IMG/VR virus record: IMGVR_UViG_2925908680_000008
DNA from: a virus
Taxonomy: Duplodnaviria > Heunggongvirae > Uroviricota > Caudoviricetes
DNA: 23,582 bases
Direction: 5' to 3' (one strand)
Below are positions 2,038 to 22,367 of the stretch, piece by piece. Both the position numbers and the translations under genes were made by a program. Position 1 is the stretch's first letter; each line of letters starts with the position of its first letter. Under the pieces are notes generated by a model. The model did not search any database. It was not told the DNA's origin and saw nothing but the letters and a program-made list of their open reading frames with translations.

Positions 2038-2217
2038 TCAGGCCGGACGTTCTACGGGATAAAGCGCCCGCTGCATTAAACGCCGGGCGACCTCATGAAT
2101 GCTCGGAGCAATCCCCAGCGGAGAATTGCGGCGTTCCTCGTCCTGGATGCGCTGTAATGCTTCAATCTGATCACGAGCGAGTAAAACGGGTTTCACGCTG
2201 GCTTTTCTCATAGTCAT
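2038..2217 (-). CDS. small hypothetical protein (59 aa), first gene of terminal operon
   Basis: ATG at 2217 (MTMRKASVK...) preceded by AGGAGA RBS; ORF track start further upstream lacks RBS. Confidence 0.4.
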   Translation of the reverse strand: MTMRKASVKPVLLARDQIEALQRIQDEERRNSPLGIAPSIHEVARRLMQRALYPVERPA

Positions 2218-2346
2218 ATCTCCTGAACAAAACAATGATTATGATTGCACAAACTGAAATAACGATCTACATCATTGCAATTTATGAAACAATAACGCAT
2301 GATGATCGCGTTCTTCCCATTGACTTCAATCACCTGAAAAACAAAG

Positions 2347-2375
2347 CCCGCAACACTTCTGGCTGCGGGTTTTTT
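2347..2375. terminator. hairpin (CCCGCA / TGCGGG, 11-nt loop) followed by T6; U-rich on both strands, possible bidirectional intrinsic terminator
   Basis: Stem-loop read directly from sequence; T-run 2370-2375 on plus, TTTGTTTTT on minus. Confidence 0.45.
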
Positions 2376-2379
2376 ACTG

Positions 2380-2407
2380 GCACAAAAAAGCCGGGAAAAA
2401 TCCCGGC
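2380..2407 (-). terminator. intrinsic terminator downstream of PerC-family gene
   Basis: Minus-strand hairpin GCCGGGA-UUUU-UCCCGGC followed by UUUUUUGUG, immediately after stop at 2413. Confidence 0.6.
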
Positions 2408-2412
2408 CTCCG

Positions 2413-2700
2413 TCACTGACTGCAATTTTTCGATCCAGGGTATTTCCTGAATGCCTTACCATTGGGCTGATGTAATCCCATCCCGGCATGTGCCCGGCTG
2501 ATGGTTTCGCGCATTTCCCCGAAATTATCCTGCCTTGCTGGTGGGCGTGCTGCCTTGCGGATACATTCCGCGCGACGTTTTGCCGCCTGTTCCCGTGCCT
2601 TGTCATCATTCGCCAGCATGATGACCTCAGCCCACCGCGCCGCCGCTCTCCGGTACAGACCACGCGCTTCCAGTGCTTCCGCTTTGCTGTCGTGAATCAT
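2413..2700 (-). CDS. PerC-family transcriptional regulator (PerC homolog, Pch-like)
   Basis: 95 aa; motif KAEALEARGLYRRAAARWAEV matches my recollection of the PerC family signature; start ATG overlaps upstream stop as ATGA. Confidence 0.65.
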   Translation of the reverse strand: MIHDSKAEALEARGLYRRAAARWAEVIMLANDDKAREQAAKRRAECIRKAARPPARQDNFGEMRETISRAHAGMGLHQPNGKAFRKYPGSKNCSQ

Positions 2701-3227
2701 GCGCCTGTTTTCTCCTTTGCTGCCCGGCGCTGACGTTTGCGCTTCTCATTCAGCGCCACCAGCCGCGTTTCTGCGTCCTGTTGTTCCTGTGGTGTCACCT
2801 CGCCGCACGGCTGGCCTTTCAGGTCGTAGCGTACCCCACCAGCCATTAAGGCGCGGTAATAGCGCGGACACTGCGCATAAGATGCCAGCGTCGCACGCAA
2901 TGCCCCTGGACCGAATGCCAGCCCCCTGACGGCGAGATCCTGCATCAGGTCGTCGAATATCCCCACCTTAAGCGGCTTCGGTGCTTCCCGGCTGAATAAT
3001 TCAGGCCACAACTCAGTGAGGCGGTTAACGCGCCTGCGGTTTTTGCGCTGGCGTTTGGTCATATGCCGCCACGGTGTCGCCCCTGTGGGCTTCTGCTGCG
3101 CTTTCTGGTTACCGGGCATCACTTTATGCGCCGATGTGGTTTTATCCTGCTCCTGCGCCGCCTGCGTCGTTTTCTGCGGCGTGCCGTAAATGCCTTTCGG
3201 TTTTCTGTTAATGGTCAGCTTAGTCAT
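2697..3227 (-). CDS. ProQ/FinO-domain RNA-binding protein with basic N-terminal extension
   Basis: PLKVGIFDDL ... LRATLASYAQCPRYYRALMAGGVRYDLKGQPCGEVTPQE closely parallels the ProQ N-terminal FinO-like domain; start taken at ATG 3227 (GGAG RBS), alternative ATG at 3239. Confidence 0.8.
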   Translation of the reverse strand: MTKLTINRKPKGIYGTPQKTTQAAQEQDKTTSAHKVMPGNQKAQQKPTGATPWRHMTKRQRKNRRRVNRLTELWPELFSREAPKPLKVGIFDDLMQDLAVRGLAFGPGALRATLASYAQCPRYYRALMAGGVRYDLKGQPCGEVTPQEQQDAETRLVALNEKRKRQRRAAKEKTGA

Positions 3228-3239
3228 GCTTTGCTCCAT

Positions 3240-3611
3240 CGTTACAACTGTCTACCAACTGTCCACCGATATAATTTATTGATTTATTTGATATTATTTA
3301 CACATAACTAAAAAATAACCTATCAATTGTCTACCAACTGTCTACCGCATTAATACATTGATAATTAATGATTTTTTCAAAATGGTAGACAGAGTAGACA
3401 GTTAAAAGAGAAATTTTAAAAATGAACCCTTAACTATCTGTTTTTTTATATACCCCCCGTGGTTTAGGAATATAGAAACAACTGTCCACTCTCTACCACA
3501 TTTAAAAATATCTATACAATTCAATGCATTAATTGGTAGATGGTTGGTAGAGGATTAAGTATTACTGTCTACCAACCGTCTACCTTTACGTTTCAGCTCA
3601 TAAATTTCGTA
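3240..3611. repeat. iteron-type replication origin with AT-rich unwinding region
   Basis: At least 10 copies of CAACTGTCTACC-like motif in both orientations (e.g. 3245-3267, 3323-3346, 3384-3403, 3479-3497, 3533-3553, 3563-3584) interspersed with AT-rich tracts, directly 3' of the replication gene. Confidence 0.7.
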
Positions 3612-5417
3612 TTATGTTCTGTCGTTAATCCCTGTTGCTGCTGGCAACCAGCTATCAGCATCATCATCTAACAGAACATTTGTTATCACTCGCCCTTTAT
3701 CCTGGCCTTTAGTGCATTTAGCCCGCTTATACTCCTTTCCGTATTCCGCCATAGCACCAGGCATATCAGTGCCAAAGCGTTTCAGTGATACTGGTTTTCC
3801 CAGACCATGCGCTGACATATAGGCTAAATAAGCATGATACAGATATCGCCTCGGGCTAAATGGCACTATTCCCGCATTGCCCACCATCATTCCTTCACAT
3901 TTAACCAACGACATCAGATAGCCGCAAAAGTCCACCAGTGAATCACCCTCACGTTTTATCATCAGAGCCTCTTCTGATTTCTGCTGCTCATATAACAGAC
4001 GTCTGGCTTCATCCTGGTCAGAAAAACGAGTAAGCAGGTGGCGAATAACTACCGCCAGTTCGCCTTCTATTTTTTCCACCAGCATGGGATCGCGTTCGTT
4101 CTCCGGTACGACCTCAGAGAAATTAAATATCACCCTACGACGCGAGATCCCCCCGCTTCGGTCACTGAATGACATGGCGTTATTGTTTACTGCCAGCACT
4201 ACCGCCGGAATACGAGTGGAGTATGGGGCTTTATGTTTCGGGTCGATCGCCACCTTGTCACCACCAGTAATTGCCTTAATTCCTGCACCATCTCCAGCGT
4301 AGCGGGCCATATCCGGCATGATAATCAGCGAAAAGCCAACGACTAACGCGCGTTCCCTTGCGTCTTCCAGCGCCTTCATGCTTGCCGATACTGTATTGAC
4401 CTTACCCGCCAGCATGGTACAAATCTCCGCCATCACACTTTTACCGCTTCCGCCCGGCCCCGTTACCTCAAGGAATAACTGCCAGTCGTACCGGTTCGCC
4501 AGTACCATGAATAATGCCGCCAGTACGCGATCTGCTTTACGATCGTTATTTGCCACCGAACGACGCAGCCACTTCCAGAAATTCGGCGCATGTGTTGCCA
4601 GCGTTTCCCCCTCTGCTGGTGGGCTGAACGGTAATTCACTGGCATTTAACAACCAGTCATTTTTGTTATGCTCCCGAAAATTTCCTGTCCGGGTATCAAA
4701 TACCCCGTTACTGAATCCAATAAGATTCCTGTCTGCCCCGCCCATAACAGGCAGGCTCAATTTCATTGTGTCTACGGCAAATTTAATGGCGTTTTGCGAA
4801 TAACTGATTCCAGCATCAATAAAAATCTTCGCCATAGATCGCTGGAGTTCCTTATCAGATACAGGCTCCCAGACAATTCCGTTGTAATGGTGAACTACAT
4901 CAGAATCGTCATTTATAGCCAGTGCCCTTCCATAATATTCAAGCAATACTTCCCCTCTCTGGCTGGCTCCCATCTGATTTAGTGCTGGCCTGGGTAGGTC
5001 ACTATTTTTTGTGACTAATTTCATCGCTGAAACTTCCCCGCGCTCTGCCTGTTCGCGGATCCGTTGCAGGTAATCGCGCCAGTTCTCCGGCTCCCGGTCG
5101 GTGATGCCTTTGTATAATTTCGCCTCCTGTACGCCAGCCAGTGCCAGTTTTTCAGCGATAGTATTGATCTGGATTGGCTCTATCTCCCCCGCGAGATAGA
5201 CACGCGCAAAGCGGCGTTCATCGTCGACAATGCGGATATTCGCCAGGTCTGCCAGTTGCTTTGGCCCCAGATAAACAGGTGGCACGTTATCGCCGTGTTT
5301 TCGTCCTTCGCTTTCAATCCAGTGTTGAGCATGGGAGTAAGCGTCCGTCCCGGCAAAAATGATTACCTCAGTGAATTTATCCTTCGGCTGATATTTCAAA
5401 TTCGGTGCGTTTTTCAC
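3612..5417 (-). CDS. replication initiation primase/helicase-like protein (P4-family primase C-terminal-type P-loop NTPase)
   Basis: 601 aa; Walker A GPGGSGKS; GTG start at 5417 with GGGAGGT RBS, overlapping upstream stop (GTGA); adjacent iteron origin. Confidence 0.75.
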   Translation of the reverse strand: MKNAPNLKYQPKDKFTEVIIFAGTDAYSHAQHWIESEGRKHGDNVPPVYLGPKQLADLANIRIVDDERRFARVYLAGEIEPIQINTIAEKLALAGVQEAKLYKGITDREPENWRDYLQRIREQAERGEVSAMKLVTKNSDLPRPALNQMGASQRGEVLLEYYGRALAINDDSDVVHHYNGIVWEPVSDKELQRSMAKIFIDAGISYSQNAIKFAVDTMKLSLPVMGGADRNLIGFSNGVFDTRTGNFREHNKNDWLLNASELPFSPPAEGETLATHAPNFWKWLRRSVANNDRKADRVLAALFMVLANRYDWQLFLEVTGPGGSGKSVMAEICTMLAGKVNTVSASMKALEDARERALVVGFSLIIMPDMARYAGDGAGIKAITGGDKVAIDPKHKAPYSTRIPAVVLAVNNNAMSFSDRSGGISRRRVIFNFSEVVPENERDPMLVEKIEGELAVVIRHLLTRFSDQDEARRLLYEQQKSEEALMIKREGDSLVDFCGYLMSLVKCEGMMVGNAGIVPFSPRRYLYHAYLAYMSAHGLGKPVSLKRFGTDMPGAMAEYGKEYKRAKCTKGQDKGRVITNVLLDDDADSWLPAATGINDRT

Positions 5418-5704
5418 TTCTTACCTCCCGCAACCAACATTGCTCGGATTTTTTTAATATTCGTGGCTGCACGTCTCGCCACCGCCTGTTGTTTGTTTTC
5501 CATCAGAATAAAATCACGATCAAACTGACGGCGCGGCATTACGCAGTCATATTCGTAAGCCTCACGGCGGTAGGTGATATTGCCTGGCGTAACGTGACGA
5601 ATAACCACTCGTCCCCCGCGTCTGGTGTCGCGGTAAATATCGCCGTGTCTGATTTCAGGCCGAGCGGGGCCGCTGGCAGTAAAGCCAGAATTTTTCTGTT
5701 TCAT
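5414..5704 (-). CDS. hypothetical basic protein (96 aa), coupled to replication gene
   Basis: ATG at 5704 with AGGAAAA RBS; stop overlaps start of downstream gene. Confidence 0.5.
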   Translation of the reverse strand: MKQKNSGFTASGPARPEIRHGDIYRDTRRGGRVVIRHVTPGNITYRREAYEYDCVMPRRQFDRDFILMENKQQAVARRAATNIKKIRAMLVAGGKK

Positions 5705-5909: not shown

Positions 5910-6267
5910 AATTCACCCCCTGAATAACCTGATAACCGCAACTGGTCAGCAATTCGATAAATTCCGGCAGTGTTCCGAAACAGCAATCATCTCGCAGCCG
6001 TTCTCGGGATACTTCAACGCCGTTTTCGTAGTGACTCACCATGCGTCCGGTAAAATGCAAATCATCATCGTGATGGCACGTTGACGGTTTAATCAGTCGC
6101 GCACGCTCTGCCAGTTCCAGCAATGCTTCAACACTTCCGGCAATTGCACCATCCGGCAGGTGGTAATTACGCACTATGCGCCCGTTCTCCACATGGACCA
6201 GTAGCTGCCCGGTAAATATCTCGTCAAACTGAATGCTGTTAAGGTCAGAAATTGACAGGTTATGCAT
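5902..6267 (-). CDS. hypothetical protein (121 aa)
   Basis: ATG at 6267 overlaps upstream stop (ATGCATAA). Confidence 0.5.
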   Translation of the reverse strand: MHNLSISDLNSIQFDEIFTGQLLVHVENGRIVRNYHLPDGAIAGSVEALLELAERARLIKPSTCHHDDDLHFTGRMVSHYENGVEVSRERLRDDCCFGTLPEFIELLTSCGYQVIQGVNYG

Positions 6268-6625
6268 GGTGCACCTCCTGGCGAATACGGGCAGCGAATA
6301 CCATCACGCAGCCATCAGGAGATTGCTGGCGTGCTTCCTGTTCGCTGGTGGCCTCGATGTGAATTACACGCGGTTGTGCCGTACTCAGGGCGATAAAACG
6401 CCAGATAAAATTGTTCTCGCATTTCTGAATAAACAGCGTGTTTTCTTCGCGCCCTTTCCATGTTGCCGAGATATAGCCCATGTCATTGAGCATCTCGCAG
6501 GCATCAACCAGCGTATCGGCGGCTACGTGTACAGTGTTTTTACCGTCAGCTATGCAATCACGGTGCACCGCCAGGAAGGTGTATATAAATTTAGGGTGAG
6601 TTTGGGTATGCTGTGTTCCAGCCAT
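6260..6625 (-). CDS. hypothetical protein (121 aa), first gene of replication operon
   Basis: ATG at 6625 (MAGTQHT...) with GAGGT RBS; E. coli-like codon usage, unlike the antisense read-through upstream. Confidence 0.5.
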   Translation of the reverse strand: MAGTQHTQTHPKFIYTFLAVHRDCIADGKNTVHVAADTLVDACEMLNDMGYISATWKGREENTLFIQKCENNFIWRFIALSTAQPRVIHIEATSEQEARQQSPDGCVMVFAARIRQEVHHA

Positions 6626-6812
6626 AATCGTTACCTCGTTTAACGGTTTGGTTAGACGCCCCGCTACTGCCGCAAACAGTTCGGGGCGTTGTCGTTTACA
6701 TCCTCTTACTGAGGTGTGATTTAAATTAAATTCAACTGAATCACAGGTCAAGTATTTTTTGTGATTCTTTTTTGTGTATACTGAATCACATCTTTTGTTT
6801 AGGAGAATGCAC
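6626..6812. promoter_or_regulatory. divergent promoter/operator region between replication operon and small regulator gene
   Basis: CTGAATCACA direct repeats at 6737-6746 and 6781-6790 with inverted TGTGATTC between; TATACT -10-like hexamer at 6777-6782; AGGAGA RBS at 6801-6806; 8-bp stem hairpin around 6650-6690. Confidence 0.5.
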
Positions 6813-7118
6813 ATGGCAAAAAACACTATCAACGACAAATCAAAACAGATTTCAATTCGTATCCCACATGATGCTTTTGATGGCATGGAATCCGTAAAAC
6901 TGGACGGCGAAAGCAACGCCGGATTCATAGTAACCGCCATGCGCGGTGAGATCGCCCGCCGCCAGGCAGAAGGAAGAGGAGAAAACCCCCTGGTTTCTTC
7001 GCTCGATGCACTGGCGCAGGTGGAAAAAATCGGTGTCAAAGCTGCCGAGGAGATCGGGCAACTCGTCACCGTCGCGCGTGAAGAACTCCAGCGACGCAAG
7101 GTCAAAGAGCAGGAATAG
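6813..7118 (+). CDS. putative ribbon-helix-helix DNA-binding regulator (candidate island repressor)
   Basis: 101 aa from ATG 6813 with AGGAGA RBS; ISIRIPHDAFDGMESVKL...NAGFIVTAMRGEIARR has a strand-helix-helix pattern; family assignment is by eye only. Confidence 0.45.
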   Translation: MAKNTINDKSKQISIRIPHDAFDGMESVKLDGESNAGFIVTAMRGEIARRQAEGRGENPLVSSLDALAQVEKIGVKAAEEIGQLVTVAREELQRRKVKEQE

Positions 7119-7175
7119 CCACTATCAGCGCCATAGTTTGAGGAACGCAGGCGCATTGCTTTACAGGACAGCACC

Positions 7176-7355
7176 ATGAGCGACACAGAATCAACCAAAA
7201 CACCATCACCAACTCGTAAGAGACGACGCAAAAATATAGCGCATGAACATGAATCAGAAAGATTCGCACCTTGTTCGTTTGCTCTTGAGAAATTCCTTAA
7301 AGAGCACAGGAAAAAGCTCTCGTTGCAAACCTTGGAACGAACCAAATCTGACTGA
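7176..7355 (+). CDS. small basic hypothetical protein (59 aa)
   Basis: ATG 7176, stop TGA 7353-7355; below ORF-track cutoff; RKRRRK basic patch. Confidence 0.3.
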   Translation: MSDTESTKTPSPTRKRRRKNIAHEHESERFAPCSFALEKFLKEHRKKLSLQTLERTKSD

Positions 7356-7756
7356 TCACATTGCCCACCAGCCGCAAATGTGGCATTGTTGGTGATGCGT
7401 TCAAGTTTGATTTGCCGTAATACCCACTGGCGACCCTCTGCGGTCGCCTTTGTTTTATCCAGAACGAAATCAGACATCAGATTGATCAGCACCTGGCGAC
7501 CTGACAAAATCGTATCGGTCGCGCCACCAGCAAAATTTTTTGCTTTCCGGACGATGTGGCCAACGGTATTTTGCAGCAAAATATTCTGCATTTCTGGCGT
7601 GCTGTGGCGACGGTGATCAGCGCCTTCACATTGAACGAACTTGTCGCTAAAATTCACCCACATAGCAAACATCGCGGTGCTGTAGGTAATTCGTTCACAA
7701 AGGCGCTCCGGCAACGGGGCGCTTTCTCTTTTTGTAACGGTCAGAGCGTTACACAT
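7355..7756 (-). CDS. hypothetical protein coupled to ant; 3' end undefined (no in-frame stop)
   Basis: ATG 7756 overlaps ant stop (ATGTGTAA) with GGAGGAAAA RBS; good codon usage for ~134 codons, then frame continues stop-free to 6260. Confidence 0.4.
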
Positions 7757-8893: not shown

Positions 8894-9070
8894 TACCCTC
8901 AGGCCTAATGGTTACCGGAAGGAAATTAACCCTAAGGGTGATGGTAATCGGAAGGAAATTAACCCTAAGGGTGATGGTAATCGGGAGGAAATCTACCCTA
9001 AGGGTGATGGTAAAATTGACGGGGAAGATAAAAAAATACCCTCAGGGTAACAGTAAATCACCCTCAGGGT
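8894..9070. promoter_or_regulatory. operator-like repeat array upstream of alpA: three tandem 33-bp repeats plus two extra palindromic sites
   Basis: 33-bp units at 8908-8940, 8941-8973, 8974-9006; motif ACCCT-N-AGGGT at 8929-8939, 8962-8972, 8995-9005, 9038-9048, 9060-9070. Confidence 0.55.
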
Positions 9071-9883: not shown

Positions 9884-10011
9884 ACGCACACCTCAGCGTC
9901 CTCTACTGTAGTGGCTGTACCAGTCCGTCGAGGTGTACGGATTTTCGGGAGCGACCCTAGACACAGCCTTTTCTTTCGTCGCTCAAAGTCTACTACTGTA
10001 TACGCAACCAG

Positions 10012-11226: not shown

Positions 11227-11873
11227 GTGTATAGCTCCAAAAAATAAATTTTGTCCTATACGCATTACTATACACTTCTGTGTGTAGATTCTGGTAGTTG
11301 TGAGTAGACGTTAATGAACTATGAAAATGGCTGGAAGACTTGATATTCGTGGGTTTGATGGACTTTAGTAGACGTTGAGAAATGTTTGTTTGGAGCGGGC
11401 GAAGGGAACAATACAACAAGCCACAAGACCAGTAGTAAAGGCACATTCGCGAGTTCTAAAATAGATTCTATACACATTTCTATACACATTTATCACTCGC
11501 TTGGGAATTACACATCCCCTGTTATCCGTGATCAAGCTGGTGGATGATCACGGATAACCGATATGGGAATCCCCATATCGGCATCGCGTAGTTAATCGTA
11601 GTGGCTACCGTAGTAGTTGAGTAGCAGGATGTAACCTGCCAGGAAGGAAATGATCGGTCGTAACTCGCCACCACCAGCCACAGAACGCAAATTTGCGTCG
11701 TCGGATATATCAACAACTTAGCACAAAAATAAGTCAGGCAGATACAAACCTCAAATTTGAGGTTTGCTTGTTTATCAACGGGTAAGGATAATCATCTCCC
11801 CTTTAAAGTCCCTTCGAAGGGTTACCCGTAGGCTTAATGTAAGGCTTGGCTGTAGCCTTACCGAACGCTCCGC
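11227..11873. other. int-upstream / att-proximal region with direct repeats and perfect palindromes (att core not identified)
   Basis: CTATAC(A/G)C repeats at 11266-11290 and 11466-11492; AGTAGACGTT twice; 14-bp-arm inverted repeat 11521-11558; 10-bp-arm palindrome 11558-11581; 22-bp perfect palindrome 11745-11766. Confidence 0.4.
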
Positions 11874-12079: not shown

Positions 12080-12345
12080 GCTGGTTGACACTTTCCGGCT
12101 TAAGACCTTAACAAATCTTAACATCGCAGGTTGACACACTTGACACTTTTTCGCGAAAAACCTTATCAAACCTTAGCATTTCTAAGCATGGCAACTTGAC
12201 ACTTTTCGCGATTTTTTCGGCTTTTTGACGTGGTAAATCTGGCGCAAAGCCAGTAACGGCGGGGTTTACAGCGAGGTTGACACTTTTTCGCGTTCAGAGT
12301 GTAAAGTGTCAACCCGGCAGACGGCCTGACTTGACACTTTTCGCG
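12080..12345. repeat. array of TTGACAC(TTTTCGCG) repeats between small junction ORF and TerS-like gene 3' end
   Basis: TTGACAC at 12085, 12131, 12140, 12196, 12277, 12331 plus inverted GTGTCAA at 12306; four copies share TTGACACTTTT(T)CGCG. Confidence 0.6.
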
Positions 12346-14768: not shown

Positions 14769-15056
14769 TCACTGACTGCAATTTTTCGATCCAGGGTATT
14801 TCCTGAATGCCTTACCATTGGGCTGATGTAATCCCATCCCGGCATGTGCCCGGCTGATGGTTTCGCGCATTTCCCCGAAATTATCCTGCCTTGCTGGTGG
14901 GCGTGCTGCCTTGCGGATACATTCCGCGCGACGTTTTGCCGCCTGTTCCCGTGCCTTGTCATCATTCGCCAGCATGATGACCTCAGCCCACCGCGCCGCC
15001 GCTCTCCGGTACAGACCACGCGCTTCCAGTGCTTCCGCTTTGCTGTCGTGAATCAT
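14769..15056 (-). CDS. PerC-family transcriptional regulator, copy 2
   Basis: Duplicate of 2413-2700. Confidence 0.65.
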   Translation of the reverse strand: MIHDSKAEALEARGLYRRAAARWAEVIMLANDDKAREQAAKRRAECIRKAARPPARQDNFGEMRETISRAHAGMGLHQPNGKAFRKYPGSKNCSQ

Positions 15057-15583
15057 GCGCCTGTTTTCTCCTTTGCTGCCCGGCGCTGACGTTTGCGCTT
15101 CTCATTCAGCGCCACCAGCCGCGTTTCTGCGTCCTGTTGTTCCTGTGGTGTCACCTCGCCGCACGGCTGGCCTTTCAGGTCGTAGCGTACCCCACCAGCC
15201 ATTAAGGCGCGGTAATAGCGCGGACACTGCGCATAAGATGCCAGCGTCGCACGCAATGCCCCTGGACCGAATGCCAGCCCCCTGACGGCGAGATCCTGCA
15301 TCAGGTCGTCGAATATCCCCACCTTAAGCGGCTTCGGTGCTTCCCGGCTGAATAATTCAGGCCACAACTCAGTGAGGCGGTTAACGCGCCTGCGGTTTTT
15401 GCGCTGGCGTTTGGTCATATGCCGCCACGGTGTCGCCCCTGTGGGCTTCTGCTGCGCTTTCTGGTTACCGGGCATCACTTTATGCGCCGATGTGGTTTTA
15501 TCCTGCTCCTGCGCCGCCTGCGTCGTTTTCTGCGGCGTGCCGTAAATGCCTTTCGGTTTTCTGTTAATGGTCAGCTTAGTCAT
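15053..15583 (-). CDS. ProQ/FinO-domain RNA-binding protein, copy 2
   Basis: Duplicate of 2697-3227. Confidence 0.8.
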   Translation of the reverse strand: MTKLTINRKPKGIYGTPQKTTQAAQEQDKTTSAHKVMPGNQKAQQKPTGATPWRHMTKRQRKNRRRVNRLTELWPELFSREAPKPLKVGIFDDLMQDLAVRGLAFGPGALRATLASYAQCPRYYRALMAGGVRYDLKGQPCGEVTPQEQQDAETRLVALNEKRKRQRRAAKEKTGA

Positions 15584-22239: not shown

Positions 22240-22367
22240 ACGCACACCTCAGCGTCCTCTACTGTAGTGGCTGTACCAGTCCGTCGAGGTGTACGGATTT
22301 TCGGGAGCGACCCTAGACACAGCCTTTTCTTTCGTCGCTCAAAGTCTACTACTGTATACGCAACCAG

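What the first reader, a model, noticed from the sequence alone, without database searches (positions are those of the whole stretch)
2413..3227. Translationally coupled ProQ/FinO-domain protein and PerC-family regulator
The ProQ-like gene stop overlaps the PerC-family start (ATGA at 2697-2700), and a strong intrinsic terminator follows. PerC homologues (Pch) are known as prophage-borne activators of host virulence regulons, and ProQ/FinO proteins are RNA chaperones. A mobile satellite coupling both could rewire host post-transcriptional and virulence regulation.
Basis: partly seen in the sequence, partly recalled or inferred. Interest (0 to 1): 0.45.

Follow-up and report, generated by a model that had tools for sequence, protein, structure and literature searches.

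The report
FinO-like and PerC-like gene pair in satellite
A small phage-parasitic island of E. coli carries, just after its replication origin, two overlapping genes for a FinO-type RNA-binding protein and a PchE-type PerC regulator; both gene types are already annotated and known in such islands, so the find is real but mostly ordinary.

Summary
On the minus strand, a 176-aa ProQ/FinO-domain gene (3227->2697) overlaps a 95-aa PerC-family gene (2700->2413) by ATGA. Two conserved hairpin terminators follow.

The host element is a 12.36-kb phage-inducible chromosomal island (PICI) with integrase, AlpA, primase and an iteron origin. The window shows it head-to-tail, joined at an attP-like site.

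RefSeq already annotates the identical pair in E. coli cq9. PerC genes are published PICI cargo, and ProQ/FinO in a PICI has been mentioned once.

What I add:
- The pair is the end of a conserved operon placed just after the origin, of the form (small ORF)-(SSB)-(FinO-like)-PerC-terminator.
- The ATGA junction and its Shine-Dalgarno site are kept in 55 loci.
- Either gene can occur without the other: SSB-PerC in O157 Sp7, FinO-like without PerC in other islands, and reversed order in one clade.
- The FinO-like protein has FinO architecture and belongs to a clade found only in such islands in E. coli.
- The PerC protein is 51% identical to PchE. Its N-terminus is a TPR-like three-helix unit remotely related to ANR anti-activators.

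PchE-type proteins do not activate LEE. Host "virulence rewiring" is therefore only partly supported, and no RNA target is known.

The parts
2697..3227 (-). FinO-type (ProQ/FinO-domain) protein gene, 176 aa. Residues 1-50 are a disordered basic N-terminus with a conserved LTINRKP motif, followed by a long helix, the FinO domain (residues ~68-172) and a basic C-terminal helix.
   Evidence: Pfam ProQ E=8e-24. The PDB profile hits ProQ-NTD 5nb9 at 5e-19, FinO 1dvo at 5e-17 and RocC. The AF2 model (pLDDT ~90 over residues 60-170) is closest to 1dvo, then RocC and NMB1681. RefSeq calls it 'ProQ/FINO family protein'. dN/dS is 0.17-0.32.
2413..2700 (-). PerC-family (PchE-type, 'group 3') small regulator gene, 95 aa.
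2697..2700 (-). ATGA stop/start overlap. The Shine-Dalgarno GGAG for PerC lies at 2712-2715, inside the end of the FinO-like gene.
   Evidence: Sequence. The junction is conserved in 55 related loci.
3234..3237 (-). Shine-Dalgarno GGAG, 6 nt upstream of the FinO-like start codon at 3227.
   Evidence: Sequence.
2384..2408 (-). Terminator hairpin 1 (GGCCGGGA-UUUU-UCCCGGC plus U6), starting 5 nt after the PerC stop.
   Evidence: Fold. It is invariant in alignment A3. It is retained even where the DNA downstream is replaced by other cargo.
2337..2369 (-). Terminator hairpin 2, with T-runs on both strands (bidirectional).
3248..3584 (.). Replication origin: 11 copies of iteron GGTAGACAG (at most 2 mismatches) in pairs on both sides of an AT-rich core. 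The last pair ends 21 nt before the FinO-like start, and the region probably holds the operon promoter.
   Evidence: Iteron count of 79 window-wide against an expected 40, with all 0-1 mismatch copies clustered here. GC is 32%. The organisation matches published PICI origins (PMC6092414). The promoter is inferred from the RACE-mapped start of the Sp7 ECs1586-SSB-pchE transcript (PMC7369912).
2212..2336 (-). Conserved control region of the next (packaging-side) operon. It holds an ATTGCAAT palindrome, a second TGCAATCAT repeat and a CATAAT -10 box without a -35 box, upstream of a 57-aa ribbon-helix-helix-like gene (2038-2211). It is not part of the pair but bounds it.
   Evidence: Alignment A3; ORFs.
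14769..15583 (-). Second copy of the same gene pair, in the second head-to-tail copy of the island.

Best explanation
The pair is the distal part of a conserved accessory operon of an enterobacterial phage-inducible chromosomal island (PICI). The operon sits between the iteron origin and the packaging-side genes. Across relatives its general form is (small ORF)-(SSB)-(FinO-like)-PerC-terminator.

Shown here:
- Both genes are intact, under purifying selection, co-oriented and joined by ATGA with an internal Shine-Dalgarno site, so PerC translation is coupled to the FinO-like gene.
- The transcript must end at the tandem hairpins. These are the first strong minus-strand terminators downstream of alpA.

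Inferred:
- The operon is transcribed at a basal level in the resident island from a promoter overlapping the last iterons, as mapped by RACE for the homologous ECs1586-SSB-pchE operon of O157. After AlpA induction it is also transcribed by read-through from the primase gene.
- The FinO-like protein has full FinO architecture: a basic N-terminal tail with the VLTLKRK-like motif and Trp, a long helix and the FinO domain, with the K35/R58/Y70/R80-equivalent residues kept. It most likely binds a terminator hairpin plus 3' U-tail, protecting an RNA or annealing it to a partner. The ligand is probably island-encoded, possibly its own mRNA 3' end.
- The PerC-like protein has no recognisable DNA-binding fold. 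It has a TPR-like/ANR-like helical unit, so it most likely acts by protein-protein contact with a nucleoid or AraC-type regulator. As with PchE, this would shift host programmes (curli down, flagella up, LEE unaffected or down), and possibly island expression too.
- The two proteins are linked by co-expression. They are not shown to be a complex, and neither needs the other to be present.
For: - Domains and fold.
- Residue mapping: the alignment to 5nb9 puts window K87, R111, Y123 and R133 opposite ProQ K35, R58, Y70 and R80. K87 and R133 are invariant and Y123 nearly invariant in A1. R111 is not: one search lists it in neither class, and two of the 19 members (P0092, P0108) have Cys there.
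- FinO-type N-terminus.
- PICI context: integrase, int-alpA RNA, AlpA, AntA, DUF4222/RgdR-type protein, D5-type primase and iterons.
- Conserved junction.
- Conserved terminators. There is no other strong minus-strand terminator between alpA and 2408.
- Operon pattern in 79 + 80 IMG/VR loci and 4 other species, including Rosenbergiella at 41-45% identity.
- Highest GC of the island (59-61% against ~49%).
- Homologous operon transcript and PchE phenotypes: PMC7369912 and PMC6265319.
- A PICI PerC that represses LEE1, with an ANR relationship suggested: PMC11773190.
- All 379 places matched in E. coli are chromosomal. Plasmid FinO proteins are at most ~41% identical, and the type is almost absent from phage genomes.
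Against: - No promoter passing the consensus scan was found on the minus strand upstream of the FinO-like gene. The promoter is inferred from a different island with different iterons.
- No RNA partner was identified. The candidates I examined are weak.
- PchE phenotypes come mostly from over-expression, and PchE is only 51% identical.
- Conservation at this position in many islands and its linkage to SSB fit a role in the island's own cycle at least as well as host modulation.
Confidence: 0.6

Rival explanations
1. Island life-cycle module. The pair, together with SSB in relatives, serves the satellite itself. PerC, the last gene of the early AlpA/replication transcription unit, switches on the next operon (ribbon-helix-helix gene plus packaging genes), whose promoter has a good -10 box but no -35 box. 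The FinO-like protein works with an island-encoded antisense RNA to set replication or packaging timing, as FinO-FinP does for traJ and FopA-Inc does for repZ.
For: - The position between origin and packaging genes is fixed in classical PICIs and capsid-forming PICIs across genera.
- The operon includes the replication protein SSB in relatives.
- A tandem terminator is followed by a conserved control region with CATAAT and TGCAAT repeats.
- Plasmid FinO-family proteins regulate their own element (PMC9977716).
- The carriers listed include pig ETEC, poultry, cattle-dung, wastewater, seawater and human isolates. Whether they carry LEE was not examined.
Against: - Islands exist with the FinO-like gene but no PerC, in which the ribbon-helix-helix or capsid genes follow directly or after an unrelated 82-aa gene. 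PerC therefore cannot be a universal late activator.
- The downstream ribbon-helix-helix protein is a more obvious regulator of those repeats.
- The O157 homologous operon is expressed in uninduced cells, and expression falls after SOS induction.
- No antisense RNA was found next to primase or the packaging leader.
Confidence: 0.25
2. Helper or competitor interference. The FinO-like protein and/or PerC act on the helper or other phages, for example by sequestering phage regulatory RNAs or counteracting phage or host silencers, either to favour the satellite or to protect the host.
For: - PICIs often carry interference and defence cargo.
- Variable cargo is inserted immediately after hairpin 1 in relatives such as L003.
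- ProQ-type proteins bind many phage-derived RNAs (PMC9977716).
Against: - No defence family was tested or matched.
- The genes are conserved rather than hypervariable (dN/dS ~0.2).
- Nothing in the sequence points to a phage target.
Confidence: 0.1
3. Decaying or non-functional remnant genes carried along by linkage.
For: Some relatives have a truncated PerC after an insertion (L073-L077).
Against: - Both ORFs are intact with dN/dS 0.13-0.38 out to 41-53% identity.
- The coupling signals and terminators are conserved.
- The pair matches 321 of 5,426 complete E. coli genomes, 123 of them over at least 80% of the query.
Confidence: 0.03

Closest known systems
PchE (ECs_1588) in the ECs1586-SSB-pchE operon of E. 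coli O157 prophage-like element Sp7 / CP-933C / O-island 51 (= PICI EcCIEDL933)
   Same: It is a PerC-family protein of the same length class and 51% identical. It occupies the same place in a PICI: after primase and the iteron origin, as last gene of a short operon, before a small ribbon-helix-helix-like gene and the packaging/capsid genes. The transcript is polycistronic (PMC7369912).
   Different: In Sp7 the gene directly upstream is an SSB, not a FinO-domain gene, and the two are separated by 10 nt rather than overlapping. The iterons and primase are of a different type.
EcCIMP1_025, the PerC-family gene of PICI EcCIMP1 (Pick et al. 2025, PMC11773190)
   Same: It is a PICI-borne PerC-family protein with a noted resemblance to ANR regulators.
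   Different: It was shown to repress LEE1-lux in C. rodentium. The paper states ~40% identity to the EDL933 and CFT073 PICI homologues. I did not compare its sequence with the window protein, and the paper reports no FinO-like neighbour (0 occurrences of ProQ or FinO).
FinO of F-like plasmids (PDB 1DVO)
   Same: It has the same architecture: a basic disordered N-terminus with a (P)VLTLKRK-type motif and a Trp, a long helix, the FinO domain and a C-terminal helix. It is the best structural match of the model.
   Different: Identity is only 28%. The NCBIfam FinO model scores 64.7 bits against a cut-off of 136. The gene is chromosomal and island-borne rather than in a tra operon, and no FinP-like partner is known.
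ProQ (E. coli chromosomal RNA chaperone; NTD PDB 5NB9)
   Same: It shares the FinO domain, and the K35/R58/Y70/R80-equivalent residues are present in the window protein.
   Different: The window protein has no linker or C-terminal Tudor-like domain. The ProQ equivalog model scores 57.8 bits against a cut-off of 127. It has an N-terminal extension instead.
FopA (FinO-domain protein of IncI plasmid pCol1B9) and RocC (Legionella)
   Same: Both are FinO-domain proteins with one dedicated antisense or sRNA ligand that is bound through its terminator hairpin (PMC9977716). RocC is a structural match.
   Different: The ligand here is unknown. FopA was not compared directly.
ANR family (Aar and relatives), small anti-activators that bind AraC-type regulators and H-NS
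   Same: The N-terminal three-helix unit of PerC-family proteins matches the whole 54-position ANR model in 33 of 36 members.
   Different: All scores are below the family cut-off (the window protein scores 14.4 bits against 32). PerC proteins are longer, with an extra C-terminal part. No interaction has been tested.

Membership tests
ProQ/FinO family (Pfam PF04352) | Sequence match to the FinO domain above the curated threshold | tested here: met
   84.1 bits against a cut-off of 27, E=8e-24, covering 104 of 109 profile positions.
ProQ/FinO family (Pfam PF04352) | FinO-domain fold | tested here: met
   The AF2 model has pLDDT ~90 over residues 60-170. Foldseek finds 1dvo, 7rgt, 7rgu, 3mw6 and 6s10 at E about 1e-6 to 3e-5, probability 1.0.
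ProQ/FinO family (Pfam PF04352) | Conserved basic and aromatic residues of the RNA-binding face (ProQ K35, R58, Y70, R80) | tested here: met
   They align with window K87, R111, Y123 and R133. K87 and R133 are invariant and Y123 nearly invariant in the 19-member alignment. R111 is replaced by Cys in two members. The identity of the functional residues rests on my knowledge of the ProQ literature.
ProQ/FinO family (Pfam PF04352) | Binds structured RNA (terminator hairpin plus 3' tail) | not testable with these tools
   Needs EMSA or CLIP.
FinO proper (NCBIfam PRK13754) | Score above the subfamily cut-off; partner FinP/traJ in a tra region | tested here: not met
   64.7 bits against a cut-off of 136. 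All 379 places matched in E. coli are chromosomal and none is on a plasmid.
ProQ proper (NCBIfam PRK04950) | Score above the equivalog cut-off; C-terminal Tudor-like domain | tested here: not met
   57.8 bits against a cut-off of 127. The protein ends 4 residues after the FinO-domain match, and Pfam finds no second domain.
PerC family (Pfam PF06069) | Full-length match above the curated threshold | tested here: met
   111.6 bits against a cut-off of 22.6, covering profile positions 1-89 of 90.
PerC/PchABC functional group (LEE1/ler activators) | Activates the LEE1 promoter | not testable with these tools
   The nearest studied homologue, PchE (51% identity), is reported not to activate LEE1, and a PICI PerC represses it. 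Membership of the activator group is therefore doubtful.
ANR family (NCBIfam NF033650) | Score above the subfamily cut-off | tested here: not met
   14.4 bits against a cut-off of 32. Weak hits in 33 of 36 homologues indicate remote relatedness only.
Gram-negative PICI (phage-inducible chromosomal island) | Integrase, AlpA, primase/rep followed by an iteron origin, one-directional gene order, size of 10-15 kb, no phage structural or lysis genes, tRNA-type att site | tested here: met
   Integrase, AlpA and D5-type primase. Iterons. The Pfam-assigned genes and the longer ORFs lie on the minus strand, apart from the opposite-strand YlcI/YnfO gene that RefSeq annotates. The unit is 12,357 bp. The att core equals the 3' end of tRNA-Gly. 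No capsid, tail or lysis family was found.
Gram-negative PICI (phage-inducible chromosomal island) | Induced, packaged and transferred by a helper phage | not testable with these tools
   Needs induction and transduction experiments.

The most novel reading that the evidence does not exclude
The FinO-like protein defines a satellite-specific branch of the FinO family with a dedicated, still unseen island RNA partner. Together with the co-translated PerC/ANR-like adaptor it would form a two-layer switch, RNA-level plus nucleoid or activator-level. The switch would be wired to the replication origin: the promoter sits inside the iterons, so occupancy by the primase/Rep would change its output. 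It would time the island's passage from quiescence or replication to packaging while also resetting host surface programmes (curli, flagella).
Probability: 0.15. Interest if true: 0.6.

Novelty: new member of a known kind. Interest (0 to 1): 0.3.

Why it matters
FinO-family RNA chaperones are known from plasmids and chromosomes, but none carried by a phage satellite has been studied. PerC-type proteins in such islands have host effects with no known mechanism.

Showing that the two genes belong to a conserved operon just after the origin, interchangeable with SSB, gives a concrete and easily tested unit. One CLIP-seq experiment and one deletion series would show whether satellites use RNA chaperones for their own control or to reprogramme the host.

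As it stands, this is a refinement of existing annotation, not a new kind of system.

Tried and rejected
- Antisense sRNA at 7625-7735 (+). The best promoter-like site and the strongest terminator in the island lie 47 nt apart. Only the hairpin half is conserved (48 loci), whereas the promoter half is kept in about 7. The hairpin can equally be the terminator of the opposite-strand YlcI/YnfO cassette that RefSeq annotates. I did not adopt it as the FinO ligand.
- int-alpA RNA (RF02996, 9900-9967) as ligand. The family consensus ends in a U-run, but the window copy does not. No support.
- A + strand RNA ending at bidirectional hairpin 2. Only an 8/12 promoter match by eye, below the scan threshold. 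Left as speculation.
- Phage genomes. The FinO-like protein has 6 weak hits and the PerC protein 2, so no phage context could be used.
- The genome-contig scan gave only 4 loci, because it holds one genome per species.
- The copy-to-copy junction was not found in any complete E. coli genome, phage or plasmid record.
- Porter et al. 2005 (PMC543544) is not held. Its results are cited second-hand.
- A complex of the two proteins could not be modelled with the tools available.

Full report
**1. What is in the sequence**

The finding's coordinates are exact, but the genes lie on the minus strand. ORF 2697..3239(-) and ORF 2413..2700(-) are listed. RefSeq and the family alignment place the first start at 3227 (MTKLTINRK...), 6 nt after a GGAG.

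The + strand reads tcat at 2697-2700, so on the coding strand the TGA of gene 1 and the ATG of gene 2 share ATGA. A GGAG lies at 2712-2715, 11 nt upstream of that ATG.

Pfam assigns gene 1 to ProQ/FinO (E=8e-24) and gene 2 to PerC (E=2e-32, full length). Both are far above the curated cut-offs.

Five nucleotides after the PerC stop there is a perfect GC-rich hairpin plus U6, followed by a second hairpin with T-runs on both strands. The 86-nt stretch folds at -33.7 kcal/mol, z = -3.3 against shuffles.

**2. What carries it**

The surrounding genes are a tyrosine integrase, an AlpA regulator, an AntA-type antirepressor, a DUF4222 protein and a D5-type primase-helicase. DUF4222 is the family of RgdR/ECs1581. 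An int-alpA RNA motif is also present.

The primase is followed by 11 copies of the iteron GGTAGACAG around a 32%-GC core. The last iteron pair ends 21 nt before the start of the FinO-like gene.

Downstream of the pair lie a 57-aa ribbon-helix-helix-like gene, two genes of unknown function (one a DUF2213 protein) and an HTH protein. This is the published anatomy of a Gram-negative PICI (PMC6092414).

The whole 12,357-bp unit occurs twice, head to tail, in the window. The joint at about 11391-11408 is the 3' end of tRNA-Gly flanked by the two island ends as they appear in E. coli cq9. It is therefore an attP-type junction. No complete E. coli genome, phage or plasmid record contains that joint. 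The window thus represents an excised circle or concatemer, or a tandem insertion.

**3. Already annotated, already partly published**

The 1.15-kb region is 100% identical in E. coli cq9 and U90 and matches 321 of 5,426 complete E. coli genomes. Every match is chromosomal. The hits listed are annotated 'ProQ/FINO family protein | PerC family transcriptional regulator'.

PerC genes are described as common PICI cargo (PMC6092414; PMC11773190). A ProQ/FinO gene in a PICI is mentioned once, in passing, in a different island from the PerC gene (PMC13612085). I found no paper describing the two as a unit.

**4. The FinO-like protein**

A profile of 19 family members hits ProQ-NTD (5e-19), FinO (5e-17), RocC and NMB1681 among solved structures.

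That alignment puts window K87, R111, Y123 and R133 opposite ProQ K35, R58, Y70 and R80. K87 and R133 are invariant in the family and Y123 nearly so; R111 is replaced by Cys in two of the 19 members.

The AF2 model is confident over residues 60-170 and is closest to FinO 1dvo. The first ~50 residues are disordered but carry a conserved LTINRKP motif. In the Rosenbergiella relative this reads KRPVLSLKRKP, almost the KRPVLTLKRK of plasmid FinO.

The architecture is therefore FinO-like, not ProQ-like, and there is no C-terminal Tudor-like domain. The protein fails both the FinO and the ProQ NCBIfam cut-offs. It is at most ~41% identical to plasmid homologues and is practically absent from phage genomes. 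It is a distinct, island-borne branch of the family.

**5. The PerC-like protein**

It is 51% identical to PchE of O157 Sakai and 46-58% identical to plasmid PerC-family genes.

33 of 36 family members match the whole ANR anti-activator model, with a best E of 8e-7. All are below the cut-off. This supports the ANR idea raised by Pick et al. and suggests action by protein-protein contact.

According to the papers read, PchE and the CFT073 homologue do not activate LEE1, and EcCIMP1_025 represses it. PchE over-expression represses csgD/curli and induces flagella, while deleting pchE slightly raises curli.

**6. Is the coupling real and general?**

- Among 79 IMG/VR loci with a FinO-like gene, 55 have PerC immediately downstream. 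The junction is ATGA (once GTGA) preceded by GGAG, despite substitutions around it.
- The trio SSB-FinO-like-PerC occurs in E. albertii and in Rosenbergiella at 45%/41% identity.
- One clade has the order SSB-PerC-FinO-like (L081-84).
- About 20 loci, mostly capsid-forming PICIs, have SSB-FinO-like followed by an unrelated 82-aa gene.
- Five loci have an insertion and a truncated PerC.
- A Serratia island has the FinO-like gene followed directly by the ribbon-helix-helix gene.

In the other direction, I looked at the 80 best PerC loci. 32 have the FinO-like gene upstream, always with the 4-nt overlap. 34 have SSB directly upstream, as in Sakai Sp7. 14 have another small gene or, in one prophage, lysis genes.

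The constant feature is therefore a short operon just after the origin that ends in PerC and a terminator. The FinO-like gene is a frequent but exchangeable member. Both genes are under purifying selection (dN/dS 0.13-0.38). The pair has the highest GC content of the island.

**7. How it is probably expressed**

For the homologous Sp7 operon, RNA-seq and RACE place the transcript start 10 nt before ECs1586, in the origin-proximal intergenic region. The transcript is polycistronic through SSB and pchE, is present in uninduced cells, and falls after an SOS inducer (PMC7369912, PMC6265319).

In the window the equivalent space is the AT-rich stretch and last iteron pair just upstream of 3227. No site there passes the consensus scan on the minus strand, so this promoter is an inference.

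The scan found no terminator-like site on the minus strand between the primase gene and the pair, and only weak ones between alpA and the hairpins at 2384-2408. AlpA-driven transcription should therefore also read into the pair and stop there.

Hairpin 1 is kept even where the DNA beyond it is replaced by other cargo. It therefore belongs to the module and marks an insertion hotspot.

**8. Mechanism, and how sure I am**

Best explanation (confidence about 0.6 overall; about 0.9 for identity and operon structure, about 0.4 for function): this is a co-translated accessory operon of a PICI.

The FinO-type protein binds a terminator-type RNA element. The ANR/TPR-like PerC protein modulates transcription through another protein. 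Host effects would be of the PchE kind rather than LEE activation.

The main rival (0.25) is a role in the island's own cycle. The fixed position, the SSB linkage and the activator-dependent-looking promoter just downstream (CATAAT without a -35 box, TGCAAT repeats) all fit that view. Islands lacking PerC and the uninduced expression in O157 argue against PerC being the general late activator. Helper or competitor interference (0.1) and decay (0.03) are less likely.

**9. Verdict**

The functional speculation is only partly supported, and the genes are already named in databases and in the PICI literature.

The new elements are the conserved operon logic just after the origin, the exchangeability of the FinO-like gene with SSB, the FinO-type N-terminus, and the support for a PerC-ANR relationship.

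Novelty: new member of a known kind. Interest: 0.3.

Noticed in passing
window 1-23582; joint at ~11391-11408: The whole 12,357-bp island is present twice, head to tail. The joint is the 3' end of tRNA-Gly (TGGAGCGGGCGAAGGGAA) flanked by the two island ends as they appear in E. coli cq9, so it is an attP-type junction. No complete E. coli genome, phage or plasmid record holds this joint. The window is therefore an excised circle or concatemer, or a tandem insertion.
   Followed up: yes
window 6260-7756 (-) and 6813-7118 (+): A 498-aa ORF (MCNALTVTKRES...) overlaps the antA stop. RefSeq instead annotates only its last 73 codons as 'Icd-like' plus an opposite-strand YlcI/YnfO gene. The long frame stays open (324-528 aa) in diverged, mosaic relatives. 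It has no Pfam match.
   Followed up: partly
window 7625-7735 (+): The best sigma-70-like site of the island (TTCACA-17-TAAAAT) lies 47 nt upstream of its strongest terminator (11-bp stem), antisense to the 5' end of the long ORF. This is a possible ~75-nt antisense RNA. However, only the hairpin half is widely conserved, and it may simply terminate the + strand cassette.
   Followed up: partly
window 9900-9967 (-) and 22256-22323 (-): The Rfam int-alpA RNA motif (RF02996, 45.5 bits) lies between the integrase stop and the next ORF. The window copy lacks the U-run of the family consensus.
   Followed up: partly
window 5414-5704 (-): The DUF4222 protein just upstream of the primase belongs to the same Pfam family as RgdR (ECs1581), the published O-island 51 regulator of type III secretion and motility.
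   Followed up: partly
window 2212-2336 (-): The conserved control region of the next operon holds the palindrome ATTGCAAT, a second TGCAATCAT about 30 nt downstream and a CATAAT -10 box without a -35 box. It sits upstream of a 57-aa ribbon-helix-helix-like gene, which in relatives follows PerC, or the FinO-like gene where PerC is absent.
   Followed up: partly
window 8908-9060 (+ strand reading): About three direct repeats of ~33 nt lie upstream of alpA (they translate as RKLTLRVMVIG three times), with small hairpins (TACCCTGAGGGTA). They may be regulator binding sites.
   Followed up: no
window 12083-12314: Five copies of GGTTGACAC/GGTTTACAG on both strands lie just upstream of the HTH (small-terminase-like) gene. 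They may be a packaging-site or regulator repeat.
   Followed up: no
L003 5816-7600; L073 6479-6895: In relatives, unrelated cargo is inserted right after terminator hairpin 1 (380-aa and 107-aa ORFs in L003) or between the FinO-like gene and PerC (a 138-aa ORF in L073). This marks a cargo hotspot at this boundary.
   Followed up: partly
plasmid record NZ_CP148430.1 (hit H66): A 12,152-bp 'plasmid' from a chicken E. coli carries a PerC-family gene with 58% identity. Its size suggests an excised island assembled as a circle.
   Followed up: no
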